Assembly (NCBI RefSeq): GCF_056712565.1 | Contig: NZ_CM160072.1 | Length of the DNA stretch: 64,000 nucleotides | Direction: 5' to 3' (one strand) | Shown here: in pieces, positions 61,809-64,000 of the stretch | Layout: each line of letters begins with the position of its first letter | Numbering within the stretch: position 1 is the first letter of the stretch | Notes under the pieces: generated by a model | The model's database searches: none | Told to the model about the DNA's origin: nothing | The model's input: the letters and a program-made list of their open reading frames with translations, nothing else | Made by a program: the position numbers and the translations under genes

Positions 61809-63857
61809 TCAGTATTGAAACGGCGTCGCCGCAATCCAGTTTTGCCACTGGCGCTCAAAGTTGGTTAGCGTTAATACGCCCCGTTCACGGCACGGGCGAG
61901 TCCAGGTTTGGTAATCATTAGCTTCCCGACAAACACAAATCATATATTGCCTGGCATCCTGATTTTCTGGCCGAAAACGCCAGGCCAGGAGTGGCCCACC
62001 TGGTGTTTGCGGTGCAATACCGGCTTCGCCATCATAGATAGCCCTGGCACCACGACTCCCACCACCGTTTTCGACATAACATTGTAAAGAACGCAGTACA
62101 GCCAGCGCCAGTTGCGCACTTTGTCGCCACTGGAAAGATTGTGCCAGGCTGTTTTCATCGCATTGAATACCTTCCCGGCGAATATCTTCACAAAGTGTTG
62201 CCAGGGTTTGCGCGGCAGTGTTGATCCCCTGTGTATGACACAAAATTGCGGCATGGTGGCTCATGGTATTTTGTATCGTTTCTCGCACGTCGTCACGTAG
62301 CAGCCCCTGATTCAGGTGCTGTTGCGCCTCATTAATCGTACTGAGAATTTGTTGCCTCTCGAGAGGCCGGTCCTGGCTTTTCTGATGAGCAATATGTAAT
62401 GCACAGCGGCGGGCGAAAACTTGCCCGGCATTGAGCGCTGCTCCACCTGGGCGCGTGACACCATGTGTTCCGGCATTTTCTCCGGCAGCATAACAACCAG
62501 TTAGCGATGTACGTGCCCAAATATCAACTTCAATTCCGCCATTAAGATGTTGATTATTTAGCGTAAACTTGAGCGGTGAGGCTGTGAGATCATGACCGTG
62601 CATCTGATACAAACGAATAGCCAGAGGATTCATCTGTGTTAATCTCGCCAGCGGTTGTGCCAGCAGGGCGTGATTTTGTTGCAGATAGTCGATGACATCA
62701 TCATCCAGCTCCCGCAGGTTAAATAGTGTTCCGTCCGCTGCGGGTTCTGGTTCCCGTAGAAAATCGAGAAAAACATCGCGCCCTTTTTGAGTCTCTTCAT
62801 AAACTGCGACATCCAGCAAGCTGGAGCCATATTCCAGCATTCGTTCCGCGTGAAACGGCCACTGGTAACCTTTGCGAAATATCGCGGAGGCCAGCATACG
62901 AGTCGTGGGGTAATAAGTTGCCAGAAAATTATACTGACGCCCGGAGTGGTCCTGCGAATAGATGCGCGGTATCGCCTGCATGTAAGTACCGGAAAGATTC
63001 CACGGAAACTGGTTGCGCGGTGTACCGATACCAAACTGACTTTCCGTAAGATTAACCAGAGTTATCCCTGCTTCCAGCGCCATGCCCAACGCACTAAAAC
63101 AGTTCACCGGATAAACACTGTCACGATAAAGTTCACCAGGCCCGCCCGTGGCTAAAACCAGATGCTGACAGCGAATCACTACCATTCTCCAGGGATTATC
63201 CCGACAGGCTTTATCGATGGCGATCACCCCCTCGACTCGTCGATTTTCTCCTTCACCACTGGTCAGGATACGAATCGCCGTTGTGTGATCGCAAAGAGGA
63301 ATATTAAGGCGCATTGCCTCCTGGGCCAGCACCTTCACCATCAGGCGCGATGTTCGAGGACCGCAGCTAGTGGCACGGCCAAATTCATCGTGATCGGTTT
63401 GGTAACGCAACGTTGCGCCAAAGAGATCTTCAGGCAGATCCAGACCCAGATATTTCAGTACTTCACAGGTGTTCACCGATCCGACCGCCTCAACATATGC
63501 GGTGTCATGATCCATCGCACCACCTGCCGCCAGGGTGTTACTTAATGTCAGAAAATGGTCACCATTTGCACGGGTATTCGCGGTGTGAAGCGTTTGTTTA
63601 TCAGAACCAGAACAGGCGGAAGTTCCCCAGAAGGCTTTGCTGGAGGCGACCATTACATCGACATTTTGCCGTTTCAGCTCGACGGCAGCTCGCCATCCTG
63701 CCGCGCCACTGCCCAGAACCAGCGTGTTGCAGCGGTACTCAGGTAAAATGGTACCGTTAAGGTCGATACTACCGCTGACTTGAGCCAGCGGTGCGTAATG
63801 GGGCATTTTCACGTCAGTCAGGGAATCGATAATAGATTCAGAGACATTATGCGTCAT
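61809..63857 (-). CDS. FAD-dependent oxidoreductase, succinate dehydrogenase/fumarate reductase flavoprotein-like, with extra C-terminal Cys-containing region
   Basis: About 682-aa product from MTHNVSES inside ORF 61809-63974 (alternative start MPHYAPLA); dinucleotide-binding GSGAAG motif, C-terminal ...GCYAAGENAGTHG... typical of FrdA/SdhA/NadB-type flavoproteins; not in K-12 at this position. Confidence 0.6.
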   Translation of the reverse strand: MTHNVSESIIDSLTDVKMPHYAPLAQVSGSIDLNGTILPEYRCNTLVLGSGAAGWRAAVELKRQNVDVMVASSKAFWGTSACSGSDKQTLHTANTRANGDHFLTLSNTLAAGGAMDHDTAYVEAVGSVNTCEVLKYLGLDLPEDLFGATLRYQTDHDEFGRATSCGPRTSRLMVKVLAQEAMRLNIPLCDHTTAIRILTSGEGENRRVEGVIAIDKACRDNPWRMVVIRCQHLVLATGGPGELYRDSVYPVNCFSALGMALEAGITLVNLTESQFGIGTPRNQFPWNLSGTYMQAIPRIYSQDHSGRQYNFLATYYPTTRMLASAIFRKGYQWPFHAERMLEYGSSLLDVAVYEETQKGRDVFLDFLREPEPAADGTLFNLRELDDDVIDYLQQNHALLAQPLARLTQMNPLAIRLYQMHGHDLTASPLKFTLNNQHLNGGIEVDIWARTSLTGCYAAGENAGTHGVTRPGGAALNAGQVFARRCALHIAHQKSQDRPLERQQILSTINEAQQHLNQGLLRDDVRETIQNTMSHHAAILCHTQGINTAAQTLATLCEDIRREGIQCDENSLAQSFQWRQSAQLALAVLRSLQCYVENGGGSRGARAIYDGEAGIAPQTPGGPLLAWRFRPENQDARQYMICVCREANDYQTWTRPCRERGVLTLTNFERQWQNWIAATPFQY

Positions 63858-64000
63858 GGGAGGTGCCCGTAGTCTGGTTATGTTGGGAAACGCTGATCGT
63901 TTCAGCGTCGGCAAGATCATCAAGATCACGATCGCGTGTTTCTGGAGCAAAGAAAGTCGCAATAATCGTACCAACGGTCAGCAGACTAAGGTAAATAGCG
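63847..64000 (-). CDS. C-terminal fragment of a putative membrane transporter (possibly MFS), 5' end outside window
   Basis: Open frame to the window edge ending ...IYLSLLTVGTIIATFFAPETRDRDLDDLADAETISVSQHNQTTGTSHDA-stop; stop overlaps the flavoprotein start (ATGACGCATAA). Confidence 0.4.
   Translation of the reverse strand, partial: AIYLSLLTVGTIIATFFAPETRDRDLDDLADAETISVSQHNQTTGTSHDA

What the first reader, a model, noticed from the sequence alone, without database searches (positions are those of the whole stretch)
61809..64000. Non-K-12 locus after qor: large FrdA/SdhA-like FAD flavoprotein translationally coupled to an upstream transporter gene
In K-12, qor is followed by dnaB. Here qor is followed instead, on the same strand, by a roughly 680-aa flavoprotein with a GSGAAG dinucleotide fold and a C-terminal YAAGENAGTHG motif typical of fumarate reductase, succinate dehydrogenase and L-aspartate oxidase flavoproteins, plus an unusual C-terminal extension of about 150 aa containing Cys residues. 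Its start codon overlaps the stop of an upstream gene (ATGACGCATAA) whose C-terminus looks like a membrane transporter. A transporter plus stand-alone flavoprotein operon suggests a catabolic module for an organic acid or similar substrate. The upstream part lies outside the window.
Basis: partly seen in the sequence, partly recalled or inferred. Interest (0 to 1): 0.55.

Follow-up and report, generated by a model that had tools for sequence, protein, structure and literature searches.

The report
Orphan SdhA-like flavoprotein in ExPEC islet
The gene after qor is the last gene of a five-gene accessory operon found in about 15% of complete E. coli genomes; it encodes a stand-alone flavoprotein with the succinate-dehydrogenase fold, from a large family that nobody has characterised and that lacks the fumarate/succinate catalytic residues, so it probably acts on a different, sugar-derived organic acid.

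Summary
Window 61809-63857 (-) is an intact 682-aa FAD protein. Its ATG overlaps the stop of an MFS transporter gene by 11 nt. K-12 has only an 82-bp qorA-dnaB spacer at this position.

The gene closes a 7.3-kb islet: LacI-type regulator, then divergently a YdiF-type CoA-transferase, a crotonase-type hydratase, a transporter and the flavoprotein. The islet is in 826 of 5426 complete E. coli genomes (UTI89, S88, APEC O1, ATCC 11775). It was listed as uncharacterised in CFT073 (c5020-c5025) in 2010 and again in 2026.

The "unusual C-terminal extension" is the normal helical and C-terminal domains of the SdhA/FrdA fold (AF2 pLDDT 94; Foldseek TM 0.66-0.79).

It is not a fumarate reductase, succinate dehydrogenase or L-aspartate oxidase:
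- The covalent-FAD His is absent.
- The capping-domain catalytic His and Arg are replaced by invariant Gly and Ser.
- No Fe-S partner gene is nearby.
- All curated family scores are far below cut-off.
- Only the flavin-side His/Arg carboxylate clamp is kept.

It belongs to a large, wholly unannotated family of ~690-aa proteins. Across phyla this family sits in sugar-acid clusters with SDR, KdgK-like kinase, Eda-like aldolase, GFO/GMC oxidoreductases, and CoA-transferase plus hydratase.

Best reading: a catabolic module for an imported sugar-derived or hydroxy carboxylic acid. The substrate is unknown. Interest is moderate.

The parts
61809..63857 (-). Flavoprotein CDS, 682 aa plus stop. Stand-alone SdhA/FrdA/NadB-fold FAD protein of an uncharacterised ~690-aa family; likely CFT073 c5021 (numbering inferred).
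   Evidence: ORF and translation. RefSeq annotation. Pfam FAD_binding_2 at residues 46-277 and 431-475. AF2 model pLDDT 94.2. Foldseek against PDB gives SdhA/FrdA at TM 0.66-0.79 and 17-18% identity. Purifying selection.
63847..64000 (-). Last 50 codons plus stop of the upstream 466-aa MFS (metabolite:H+ symporter type) transporter gene. The rest lies beyond the window end.
   Evidence: Translation ...AIYLSLLTVGTIIATFFAPETRDRDL...TSHDA*. Full gene in L001 13754-15154. TIGR00883 scores 353 bits (cut-off 443); the closest named model is ShiA at 268 bits.
63847..63857 (-). 11-nt overlap ATGACGCATAA between the transporter stop (TAA) and the flavoprotein start (ATG).
   Evidence: Read directly from the sequence. 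The overlap is shown; translational coupling is inferred. In the alternative allele with an Nramp-like transporter the genes are 10 nt apart instead.
63696..63713 (-). GSGAAG dinucleotide-binding motif (residues 49-54).
   Evidence: G49 and G51 are invariant in 63 family members.
63591..63626 (-). GTSACSGSDKQT (residues 78-89), the family signature at the position of the FrdA/SdhA covalent-FAD histidine. The His position is C82 here and Asn in 43 of 63 homologues.
   Evidence: Profile alignment to SdhA. Column counts.
63024..63038 (-). QFGIG (residues 274-278), aligned to FrdA/NadB Q(F/Y)HPT. The catalytic His (FrdA H232, NadB H244) is replaced by invariant G276.
   Evidence: hhalign against FrdA and NadB. 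G276 occurs in 63 of 63 sequences.
62811..62828 (-). GSSLLD (residues 344-349), aligned to the FrdA 'GPRD' segment. The proton-shuttle Arg (FrdA R287) is replaced by invariant S345.
   Evidence: hhalign (the capping-domain alignment is of low confidence). S345, S346 and D349 are invariant.
62442..62552 (-). Flavin-side substrate clamp that is retained: QH(L)NG with H437 (62547-62549) and YAAGENAGTHGVTRPGG with R469 (62451-62453). These are equivalent to FrdA H355 and R390.
   Evidence: Alignments. H437 and R469 are invariant in 63 of 63 sequences.
61704..61808 (-). 105-nt spacer between the flavoprotein stop and the qorA start. It holds a hairpin CCGGG-N12-CCCGG followed by an A-run, not a T-run, in the sense direction. 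It is unrelated to the K-12 qorA upstream sequence.
   Evidence: Sequence. No terminator-like site was called between the two genes. Comparison with K-12. Read-through into qorA is possible but untested.

Best explanation
The ORF is the last gene of a five-gene accessory catabolic islet inserted between dnaB and qorA in B2-type E. coli. The islet has a LacI-type repressor gene, then divergently a YdiF-type (class I) CoA-transferase, a crotonase-type enoyl-CoA hydratase/dehydratase, an organic-acid:H+ symporter and the flavoprotein.

The flavoprotein is cytoplasmic and stands alone. It has the full four-domain SdhA/FrdA/NadB fold and very probably binds FAD non-covalently. It keeps the flavin-side His/Arg pair that clamps a substrate carboxylate above the flavin. 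Its enlarged capping domain is different and strongly conserved, and lacks the fumarate/succinate/aspartate catalytic His and Arg.

Proposed mechanism (inferred):
1. An organic acid with sugar-like character is imported. A hexuronate-, aldonate- or deoxy/hydroxy-acid-type compound is the best guess.
2. The flavoprotein oxidises or reduces the acid next to its carboxylate, at C-alpha/C-beta or C-alpha-OH.
3. The CoA-transferase and hydratase carry out a thioester-assisted hydration or dehydration of the same carbon skeleton.
4. The product feeds into central pathways, in relatives through a KdgK-like kinase and an Eda-like aldolase.

Shown: the gene content, the fold, the residue pattern, the distribution and the conserved neighbourhoods. 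Inferred: the substrate class, the order of steps and the redox direction.
For: Islet structure and K-12 comparison.

Flavoprotein properties:
- Fold: AF2 pLDDT 94.2; Foldseek full-length matches to SdhA and FrdA.
- H437 and R469 (FrdA H355 and R390) are invariant. The covalent His, H232 and R287 equivalents are replaced by C/N, G276 and S345.
- No signal peptide or Tat motif at the N-terminus (sequence).
- No conserved Cys.
- No Fe-S or cytochrome gene in the islet.

Partner enzymes:
- The CoA-transferase scores 338 bits to the E. coli YdiF structure, with the catalytic Glu conserved.
- The hydratase scores 190 bits to 3-hydroxypropionyl-CoA dehydratase 5zai, with both catalytic Glu present.

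Conserved module:
- Orthologues of the CoA-transferase (60-87% identity) and of the hydratase (42-83%) lie beside flavoprotein homologues in other Enterobacterales, Alpha- and Betaproteobacteria. More distant homologues (34-40% identity) lie beside one in a Clostridia MAG.

Sugar-acid link:
- In 78 loci, the genes within 6 kb of the flavoprotein gene include an SDR (31 loci), a LacI regulator (19), a KdgK-like kinase (17), GMC oxidoreductases (17 and 15), GFO/IDH/MocA oxidoreductases (15 and 10), AP_endonuc_2 isomerase-like proteins (13) and an Eda-like aldolase (12).
- The paralogous E. coli cluster carries a TRAP binding protein whose best solved relatives are D-glucuronate/D-galacturonate-binding proteins.
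- The regulator is LacI-type.

Functional gene: dN/dS 0.085-0.24; intact in 826 genomes.
Against: - No substrate, activity or phenotype is known for any family member.
- The E. coli B2 islet itself has no kinase, aldolase or SDR, so the sugar-acid link rests on relatives at about 50-56% identity.
- The neighbourhoods are heterogeneous, with at least five types. The family may therefore act on several substrates.
- The capping-domain alignment that identifies the lost catalytic Arg is of low confidence.
- The transporter's nearest named relatives (ShiA, ProP, TcuC) are all below cut-off and point to no particular acid.
- In 548 genomes the transporter is replaced by a very divergent Nramp-like protein, which is not an obvious acid carrier.
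- The electron acceptor or donor of a stand-alone enzyme is undefined.
Confidence: 0.5

Rival explanations
1. Reductive electron-sink pathway. A 3-hydroxy acid is imported, activated by the CoA-transferase and dehydrated by the crotonase to an enoyl compound. The flavoprotein then reduces the double bond as a soluble fumarate-reductase-like enoate reductase. This would resemble carnitine to crotonobetaine to gamma-butyrobetaine (CaiB/CaiD/CaiA), and would help redox balance in the anaerobic gut.
For: - The CoA-transferase plus crotonase pair matches the CaiB/CaiD and AcuN/AcuK logic (general knowledge).
- The hydratase's closest solved relative is a dehydratase acting on 3-hydroxypropionyl-CoA.
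- In anaerobes (Phycisphaerae, Clostridia, Bacteroidia MAGs) the flavoprotein gene sits next to OYE-type or OYE plus GltD-type NAD(P)H flavoenzymes. These could act as electron-input modules.
- The family is common in strict anaerobes of gut and sediment.
Against: - There is no electron-donor module in the E. coli islet.
- The proton-donating Arg needed for fumarate-type reduction is replaced by Ser.
- Relatives associate with a KdgK-like kinase and an Eda-like aldolase, which points to carbon catabolism rather than a dead-end reduction.
- The LacI-type regulator and the sugar ABC/TRAP transporters point to a growth substrate.
Confidence: 0.2
2. A redox-neutral flavoenzyme. FAD would be used transiently to isomerise, epimerise or (de)hydrate a keto- or hydroxy-sugar acid. 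Together with the frequently adjacent SDR it would form a functional analogue of the KduI/KduD or IdnD/IdnO pairs, funnelling unusual stereoisomers to 2-keto-3-deoxygluconate.
For: - An SDR is the commonest neighbour, in 31 of 78 loci.
- Phycisphaerae operons read OYE, SDR, Eda, (504-aa secreted protein), flavoprotein, KdgK. They contain every step of the unsaturated-uronate route except the isomerase.
- The redox catalytic residues of the capping domain are lost, while many new invariant polar residues appear: K329, Y331, W333, D349, R405, N410.
- No electron-transfer partner is encoded.
Against: - This is purely inferential, and no precedent exists in this superfamily.
- E. coli already has KduI and KduD.
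- The B2 islet has no SDR.
- The idea does not explain the CoA-transferase/hydratase pair.
Confidence: 0.12
3. A genuine paralogue of known enzymes: a soluble fumarate reductase or succinate dehydrogenase, an L-aspartate oxidase, or a TcuA-like tricarballylate dehydrogenase working with its TcuC-like transporter.
For: - The best named hits are TfrA, NadB, SdhA and FrdA.
- The fold is shared and the His/Arg clamp is present.
- The transporter has a 180-bit match to TcuC.
Against: - All curated models are far below cut-off. Examples: TfrA 117 against 718, nadB 90 against 453, sdhA_frdA 88 against 567, TcuC 180 against 445. There is no TcuA hit at all.
- The catalytic His and Arg and the covalent His are replaced.
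- No FrdB, SdhB, TfrB or TcuB gene is present.
- The genome already has frdABCD and nadB.
Confidence: 0.04

Closest known systems
Complex II flavoprotein subunits SdhA / FrdA (e.g. E. coli FrdA 1kf6, SdhA 1nek)
   Same: - Full four-domain architecture: FAD-binding, capping, helical and C-terminal domains. Foldseek E about 1e-30, TM 0.66-0.79.
- GxGxxG motif.
- Flavin-side His/Arg carboxylate clamp (H437/R469 equal FrdA H355/R390).
- An 'SRG' motif in the C-terminal domain.
   Different: - 17-18% identity.
- No covalent-FAD His.
- Capping-domain catalytic His and Arg replaced by invariant Gly and Ser.
- Capping domain about 50 residues larger, with its own invariant motifs (NLSGTY, KGYQWPF, GSSLID).
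- No Fe-S or membrane subunits.
- About 40-residue N-terminal extension.
L-aspartate oxidase NadB (1chu, 1knp)
   Same: - Best sequence-level hit in the PDB.
- Stand-alone cytoplasmic enzyme of the same fold with non-covalent FAD. This is the closest model for how a partner-less member of the superfamily can work, passing electrons to O2, fumarate or quinones.
   Different: - TIGR00551 scores 90 against a cut-off of 453.
- NadB H244 and R290 are not conserved.
- The protein is 140 residues longer.
- It sits in a catabolic operon rather than NAD biosynthesis.
Carnitine (caiTABCDE) and acrylate/3-hydroxypropionate (acuN-acuK) type modules
   Same: Operon logic: an acid transporter, a CoA-transferase, a crotonase-family (de)hydratase and a flavin oxidoreductase acting on one small carboxylic acid (general knowledge).
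   Different: - The CoA-transferase is class I YdiF-type, not class III CaiB-type.
- The flavoprotein has the SdhA fold, not an acyl-CoA dehydrogenase fold.
- The regulator is LacI-type.
- No FixABCX-like electron-transfer genes are present.
CoA-dependent sugar-acid catabolism (deoxyribonate pathway of Klebsiella michiganensis, PMC6365646)
   Same: A precedent that enterobacteria degrade a sugar acid through acyl-CoA intermediates encoded in a small accessory cluster with MFS transporters. That paper also notes that deoxyribonate occurs in human urine.
   Different: Different enzymes: a CoA-synthetase, a 3-hydroxyacyl-CoA dehydrogenase, a thiolase and a glycerate kinase, with no SdhA-like flavoprotein. 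No homology link was tested.

Membership tests
SdhA/FrdA flavoprotein subunit of succinate:quinone oxidoreductase / fumarate reductase | Four-domain fold (FAD-binding, capping, helical, C-terminal) | tested here: met
   AF2 model pLDDT 94.2. Foldseek aligns 650-690 columns to SdhA and FrdA, TM 0.66-0.79. hhalign covers FrdA residues 2-565.
SdhA/FrdA flavoprotein subunit of succinate:quinone oxidoreductase / fumarate reductase | Histidine for the covalent 8-alpha-N3-histidyl-FAD link (FrdA H44, SdhA H45) | tested here: not met
   The aligned position is C82 in this protein. Across the family it is Asn in 43, Cys in 15 and never His in 63 sequences.
SdhA/FrdA flavoprotein subunit of succinate:quinone oxidoreductase / fumarate reductase | Capping-domain catalytic residues (FrdA H232 and proton-shuttle R287) | tested here: not met
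   hhalign places invariant G276 at H232 and invariant S345 at R287. The H232 column is in a well-aligned stretch. The R287 column is in a low-confidence stretch.
SdhA/FrdA flavoprotein subunit of succinate:quinone oxidoreductase / fumarate reductase | Flavin-domain His/Arg pair that binds the substrate carboxylate (FrdA H355, R390) | tested here: met
   H437 and R469 are invariant in 63 of 63 sequences.
SdhA/FrdA flavoprotein subunit of succinate:quinone oxidoreductase / fumarate reductase | Adjacent Fe-S subunit (FrdB/SdhB) and membrane anchor genes | tested here: not met
   No such gene is in the islet or beside homologues in 78 loci.
SdhA/FrdA flavoprotein subunit of succinate:quinone oxidoreductase / fumarate reductase | Score above the curated NCBIfam cut-offs | tested here: not met
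   TIGR01812 scores 87.6 against 567. PRK09231 FrdA scores 51.8 against 854. TIGR01816 SdhA scores 58.4 against 727.
L-aspartate oxidase (NadB) | Score above the TIGR00551 cut-off, and catalytic H244/R290 | tested here: not met
   The score is 89.9 against 452.75. H244 aligns to G276, and there is no aligned Arg for R290.
Tricarballylate dehydrogenase system (TcuA/TcuB/TcuC) | TcuA-type flavoprotein with a TcuB partner and a TcuC transporter | tested here: not met
   No TcuA model is among the 28 NCBIfam hits. There is no TcuB-like gene. The transporter scores 180 against 445 for TcuC.
Uncharacterised ~690-aa 'FAD-binding protein' family (no curated name) | Full-length homology and the family's invariant motifs (GSDKQT, TDHD, NLSGTY, KGYQWPF, GSSLID, QHxNGG, RPGGxALNxGQ, SRG) | tested here: met
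   Thousands of full-length hits at 50-78% identity. 376 clusters at 50% identity with E<1e-30. Invariant columns are all present in this protein. AFDB relatives align at TM 0.85-0.98.
Class I CoA-transferase, YdiF / propionate CoA-transferase type (upstream gene, outside the window) | Fused alpha/beta subunit architecture with the catalytic glutamate (YdiF E333) | tested here: met
   338 bits over residues 5-516 to 2ahu. 'vETGpiGG' aligns to 'lEQGaiGG'.
Crotonase-type enoyl-CoA hydratase (upstream gene, outside the window) | Two catalytic glutamates (GGGxE...PE) | tested here: met
   GGGLELA and LPETGL are conserved in the alignment to 5zai and 5z7r. The protein is below the equivalog cut-offs (217 against 394), so the substrate is not assigned.
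Metabolite:H+ symporter (MHS) subfamily of MFS transporters (gene cut by the window end) | Score above the TIGR00883 cut-off | tested here: inconclusive
   353 bits against a cut-off of 443. The match is full-length (residues 27-416), and sources name the protein an MHS family transporter.

The most novel reading that the evidence does not exclude
The ~690-aa family may be a new functional class within the succinate-dehydrogenase superfamily. It would catalyse a step of a so far undescribed and widely distributed route for sugar-acid (hexuronate, aldonate or deoxy-acid) catabolism. In that route a CoA-transferase/crotonase pair replaces the classical metal-dependent sugar-acid dehydratases by doing the dehydration on the thioester. 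E. coli carries two paralogous versions. The B2/ExPEC-enriched version would let extraintestinal strains use a host-derived acid, for example from urine or mucus.
Probability: 0.2. Interest if true: 0.7.

Novelty: new variant of a known kind. Interest (0 to 1): 0.45.

Why it matters
If the reading is right, one more 'FAD-binding protein' annotation becomes the entry point to an orphan enzyme family.

- Size of the family: it has hundreds of sequence clusters across Proteobacteria, Planctomycetota, Verrucomicrobiota, Firmicutes and even an Asgard archaeon. No member has been characterised.
- What it shows: the complex II flavoprotein scaffold has been re-tooled with a new capping domain for a different carboxylic acid.
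- Relevance to E. coli: the islet is one of the small metabolic differences between B2/ExPEC strains (UTI89, CFT073, S88, APEC O1, Nissle-type lineages) and K-12. It has been flagged as uncharacterised since 2010. Identifying its substrate would add a defined nutrient or redox niche to models of ExPEC fitness.
- Tractability: E. coli carries two paralogous clusters, each with interchangeable transporters. This makes it a workable genetic system for solving the family's function.

Tried and rejected
Searches that gave no functional name:
- Literature search by protein accession found nothing.
- Searches for KduI/KduD plus flavoprotein, for sugar acid plus CoA-transferase plus hydratase plus FAD, and for SMc04130 or 7VPF found nothing relevant.
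- NCBIfam, Pfam, PDB sequence search, PDB Foldseek and AFDB50 Foldseek returned only the superfamily or 'FAD-binding protein'.
- Cluster-member names were all generic.

Ideas rejected:
- Fe-S cluster or redox-Cys role for the C-terminal cysteines. None of them is conserved.
- Periplasmic respiratory reductase of the Fcc3 or UrdA type. There is no signal or Tat motif, no FMN_bind or cytochrome domain, and the fold is SdhA-type rather than Fcc3-type.
- Recent foreign origin judged by base composition. GC is 0.46-0.55 across the islet, like its flanks.
- qorA as part of the module. It is a core gene present in K-12, although read-through from the islet cannot be excluded.

Attempts that stayed inconclusive:
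- I tried to name the neighbours (SDR, AP_endonuc_2, GFO) from solved structures. Only structural-genomics entries without function came back.
- I tried to deduce a single substrate from the gene neighbourhoods. They fall into at least five types and do not converge on one compound.
- The deoxyribonate CoA pathway of Klebsiella was read as a possible match, but it uses different enzymes.

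
Full report
**1. What is in the window**

On the minus strand, 61809-63857 is an uninterrupted ORF of 682 codons that begins MTHNVSES. The mechanical ORF list extends it to a TTG at 63974. However, homologues align from residue 1-5 of the ATG form, and RefSeq annotates the same start (WP_000149529.1).

The upstream frame ends ...TSHDA-TAA at 63847-63849. 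The string ATGACGCATAA therefore holds the flavoprotein start and the stop of the upstream gene, an 11-nt overlap. GSGAAG is residues 49-54 and YAAGENAGTHG is residues 456-466.

**2. Genomic setting**

The window is 100% identical to E. coli ATCC 11775, UTI89, S88, APEC O1 and other B2 strains. In ATCC 11775 the complete unit is as follows:
- dnaB (-)
- LacI-family regulator (-, 344 aa)
- a 255-bp AT-rich divergent region
- acyl-CoA:acetate/3-ketoacid CoA-transferase (+, 523 aa)
- enoyl-CoA hydratase family protein (+, 259 aa, 8-nt overlap with the previous gene)
- a 90-bp gap
- MFS transporter (+, 466 aa)
- FAD-binding protein (+, 682 aa, 11-nt overlap)
- a 105-bp spacer
- qorA (+)

The flavoprotein gene is present in 826 of 5426 complete E. 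coli genomes, always chromosomal and single-copy. GC content does not differ from the flanks.

The locus is not new to the literature. CFT073 genes c5020-c5025 were listed in 2010 as an uncharacterised '3-ketoacid metabolism' gene set, shared with UTI89 but absent from 17 other strains (PMC2831201). In 2026 the five ORFs between qorA and dnaB were noted as part of genomic region GR32 of ExPEC, again without a function (PMC12928451). CFT073 protein c5025, grouped in that study with transcription-related proteins and probably the LacI regulator, was detected in a proteome of urine-grown CFT073 (PMC9045377).

**3. What the flavoprotein is**

Sequence searches:
- Pfam finds only FAD_binding_2, split at residues 46-277 and 431-475.
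- NCBIfam gives 28 weak hits to TfrA, NadB, SdhA, FrdA and AprA. All are far below the curated cut-offs; the best is 117 bits against 718.
- The best PDB sequence hit is NadB at E 1e-9.

Structure prediction:
- With a 63-sequence family alignment, AlphaFold2 gives a confident model (pLDDT 94.2, pTM 0.94).
- Foldseek aligns essentially the whole chain to SdhA and FrdA (650-690 columns, TM 0.66-0.79, 17-18% identity).
- Profile alignments run through the FrdA helical and C-terminal domains to residue 565 of 602.

The last ~190 residues are therefore the canonical helical and C-terminal domains, not an extension. What is extra is a ~40-residue N-terminal segment and a capping domain about 50 residues larger than in FrdA. 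No cysteine is conserved in the family, so there is no hidden Fe-S site. The N-terminus has no signal or Tat motif.

**4. Membership tests**

Residue by residue:

| FrdA / NadB feature | Position in this protein | Family pattern (63 sequences) |
|---|---|---|
| Covalent-FAD His (FrdA H44) | C82 | Asn in 43, Cys in 15, never His |
| Q(F/Y)HPT His (FrdA H232, NadB H244) | G276 | invariant Gly |
| 'PRD' proton-shuttle Arg (FrdA R287) | S345, in GSSLID | invariant Ser; lower-confidence alignment |
| Flavin-side carboxylate clamp (FrdA H355, R390) | H437, R469 | both invariant |

The family has its own invariant motifs, many of them in the capping domain: GSDKQT, TDHD, NLSGTY, KGYQWPF, GSSLID, P..RL...N and SRG.

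No Fe-S, cytochrome or membrane-anchor gene accompanies the gene in E. coli or in 78 related loci.

Conclusion: the protein has the SdhA/FrdA/NadB fold and probably works like a stand-alone member of that superfamily, with a carboxylate substrate positioned over the flavin. It is not a member of the fumarate reductase, succinate dehydrogenase, L-aspartate oxidase or TcuA families.

**5. The family**

Full-length ~690-aa homologues are abundant. There are thousands of 90%-identity clusters and 376 clusters at 50% identity with E<1e-30. They occur in these groups:
- Enterobacterales, Rhizobiales and Rhodobacteraceae
- Betaproteobacteria
- Planctomycetota, Verrucomicrobiota and Lentisphaerota
- Firmicutes, Coriobacteriia and Spirochaetes
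- Promethearchaeum

Every source name is generic, and no UniProt or PDB relative is characterised. The gene is under purifying selection: dN/dS is 0.24 between the two E. coli alleles and 0.085 against a 78% homologue.

**6. Neighbourhoods**

I called ORFs in 84 loci and clustered them. I named the main clusters with NCBIfam.

Number of the 78 loci in which each gene type lies within 6 kb of the flavoprotein gene:

| Neighbour | Loci |
|---|---|
| SDR (PRK12745 type) | 31 |
| LacI regulator | 19 |
| KdgK-like PfkB kinase | 17 |
| GMC oxidoreductase, type a | 17 |
| GMC oxidoreductase, type b | 15 |
| GFO/IDH/MocA oxidoreductase, type a | 15 |
| GFO/IDH/MocA oxidoreductase, type b | 10 |
| AP_endonuc_2 isomerase-like protein | 13 |
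| Eda-like aldolase | 12 |
| TetR regulator | 10 |
| OYE-type flavoenzyme, long form | 8 |
| OYE-type flavoenzyme, short form | 7 |

The gene orders fall into recurrent types:
- **(A) Enterobacterales:** TetR | SDR, GFO, AP_endonuc_2, MFS, flavoprotein.
- **(B) E. coli and E. albertii:** TetR | SDR, AP_endonuc_2, hydratase, CoA-transferase, flavoprotein, TRAP transporter.
- **(C) This islet:** LacI | CoA-transferase, hydratase, transporter, flavoprotein.
- **(D) Rhodobacteraceae and Rhizobiales:** sugar ABC transporter, two GMC oxidoreductases, small Dabb-like protein, LacI, GFO, flavoprotein, kinase. These often have an aldehyde dehydrogenase, a hydratase and a CoA-transferase further upstream.
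- **(E) Phycisphaerae:** OYE/GltD-type flavoenzyme, SDR, Eda, (504-aa secreted protein), flavoprotein, kinase.
- **(F) Firmicutes:** OYE, flavoprotein, SDR. One locus reads flavoprotein, CoA-transferase, hydratase, SDR, CoA-transferase, LacI.

The CoA-transferase, hydratase and flavoprotein form a recurrent module. Orthologues of the B2 CoA-transferase at 60-87% identity, and of the hydratase at 42-83%, lie beside flavoprotein homologues in other enterobacteria (L089, L090), in Alphaproteobacteria (L017, L051), in a metagenome contig of unknown origin with the Alphaproteobacteria-type gene order (L091) and in a betaproteobacterium (L009).

**7. The partner enzymes**

- The CoA-transferase scores 338 bits to E. 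coli YdiF (2ahu), and the catalytic Glu333 is conserved.
- The hydratase is closest to 3-hydroxypropionyl-CoA dehydratase (5zai, 190 bits) and to clostridial crotonase. Both catalytic glutamates are present.
- The transporter is of the MHS type and is nearest to ShiA and YhjE. All matches are below cut-off.

**8. Substrate class**

Several lines point to a sugar-derived carboxylic acid:
- LacI-type regulators.
- Sugar ABC and TRAP transporters.
- KdgK-like and Eda-like genes in relatives.
- GFO, GMC and AP_endonuc_2 enzymes, which are typical of keto-sugar chemistry.
- The TRAP binding protein of the paralogous E. coli cluster. Its best solved relatives (205-243 bits) are 4ovr, 4x8r, 4n8y, 4n15, 4n91 and 4mhf. 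4N91 and 4MHF are D-glucuronate and D-glucuronate/D-galacturonate binders, and 4N15 served as the template for a hexuronate binder in PMC7660916. That the remaining entries bind hexuronates is my recollection, not something tested here.

This is suggestive and not decisive. The B2 islet itself lacks a kinase, an aldolase and an SDR, and the neighbourhood types differ.

**9. Mechanism proposed**

The shown and inferred parts are marked in the Best explanation section. In brief: an acid is imported, the flavoprotein performs a redox step next to the carboxylate, and the CoA-transferase/crotonase pair performs a thioester-assisted hydration or dehydration.

Two chemically reasonable versions exist:
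- **Oxidative (catabolic).** The acid is converted to an enoate or 2-keto acid, hydrated, and passed to central metabolism.
- **Reductive (electron sink, carnitine-like).**

I favour the catabolic version because relatives associate with a kinase and an aldolase and with uptake systems for growth substrates. The reductive version draws support from the OYE/GltD-type partners found in anaerobes.

A redox-neutral isomerase role paired with the SDR cannot be excluded. A true fumarate, succinate, aspartate or tricarballylate enzyme is effectively excluded.

**10. Verdict**

- The operon architecture is ordinary. The locus has been catalogued before, without a function.
- The flavoprotein represents a large, uncharacterised and catalytically re-tooled branch of a very well-known superfamily. 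It has a conserved multi-phylum gene context and two paralogous copies in E. coli.
- This merits moderate interest as a tractable orphan-function problem, not as a new kind of system.

Noticed in passing
Beyond the window end. L001 13754-15154 compared with L088 5284-6513; also L089 and L090.: The islet exists in two alleles that differ in the transporter gene only. A 466-aa MHS-type MFS transporter occurs in 278 genomes, including this window. A 409-aa very divergent Nramp-family protein (81 bits against the MntH cut-off of 430) occupies the same slot in about 548 genomes. The flanking genes are 97-99% identical. Both versions also occur in other enterobacteria, so the cassette swap is old.
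   Followed up: partly
L094 15421-23700 (same genome as the window, ATCC 11775); L092 4950-14733; L016; L025.: E. coli carries a second, paralogous cluster between ytfB and rplI: TetR | SDR, AP_endonuc_2-type isomerase, hydratase, CoA-transferase and a 690-aa flavoprotein of the same family (about 52% identity). It is followed by a TRAP transporter in many strains or by an MFS transporter in ATCC 11775. 1448 of 5426 genomes cover at least 80% of it. Its TRAP binding protein resembles hexuronate-binding proteins. From memory, K-12's ytfA pseudogene at that position may be a remnant of the TetR gene; I did not check this.
   Followed up: partly
window 58513-59184 compared with K-12 L085 1489-3670.: K-12 has yjbL and yjbM between zur and dusA. 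In the window strain zur and dusA are adjacent, so those two genes are absent here.
   Followed up: no
L001 1-7387, beyond the window on the dnaB side.: The same B2 region carries further non-K-12 insertions. One is pnuC plus an AAA-family ATPase between alr and tyrB. Another is a second 2-oxoglutarate dehydrogenase cluster (sucA-like, odhB, lpdA) after tyrB. The second corresponds to CFT073 c5030-c5041, '2-oxoglutarate metabolism' in PMC2831201 and GR32 in PMC12928451.
   Followed up: no
L001 11121-11155, in the divergent promoter region between the LacI gene and the CoA-transferase gene.: There is an imperfect 15-nt inverted repeat, CTCATGCGATCCGTT-N5-AAGGGATCGCAGGAG (87% complementary). It is a candidate operator for the LacI-type regulator.
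   Followed up: no
window 61704-61808.: The qorA upstream sequence is unrelated to the K-12 qorA-dnaB spacer. No terminator-like site separates the flavoprotein gene from qorA. In B2 strains qorA may therefore be transcribed partly by read-through from the islet.
   Followed up: partly
One search, cluster 3 (protein P0302).: A 170-aa 'hypothetical protein' that clusters at 90% identity with the CoA-transferase is recorded on 655 contigs. It may be a truncated remnant of the islet, or a miscalled fragment, in another E. coli lineage.
   Followed up: no
L054, L063, L068-L071, L074, L077, L079 (Phycisphaerae MAGs).: A strongly conserved operon lies between uvrA and mtnA. It encodes an OYE/GltD-type Fe-S flavoenzyme, an SDR, an Eda-like aldolase, a 504-aa secreted protein with no NCBIfam match, the flavoprotein and a KdgK-like kinase. 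It looks like a uronate-to-KDG pathway that lacks a KduI-type isomerase.
   Followed up: partly
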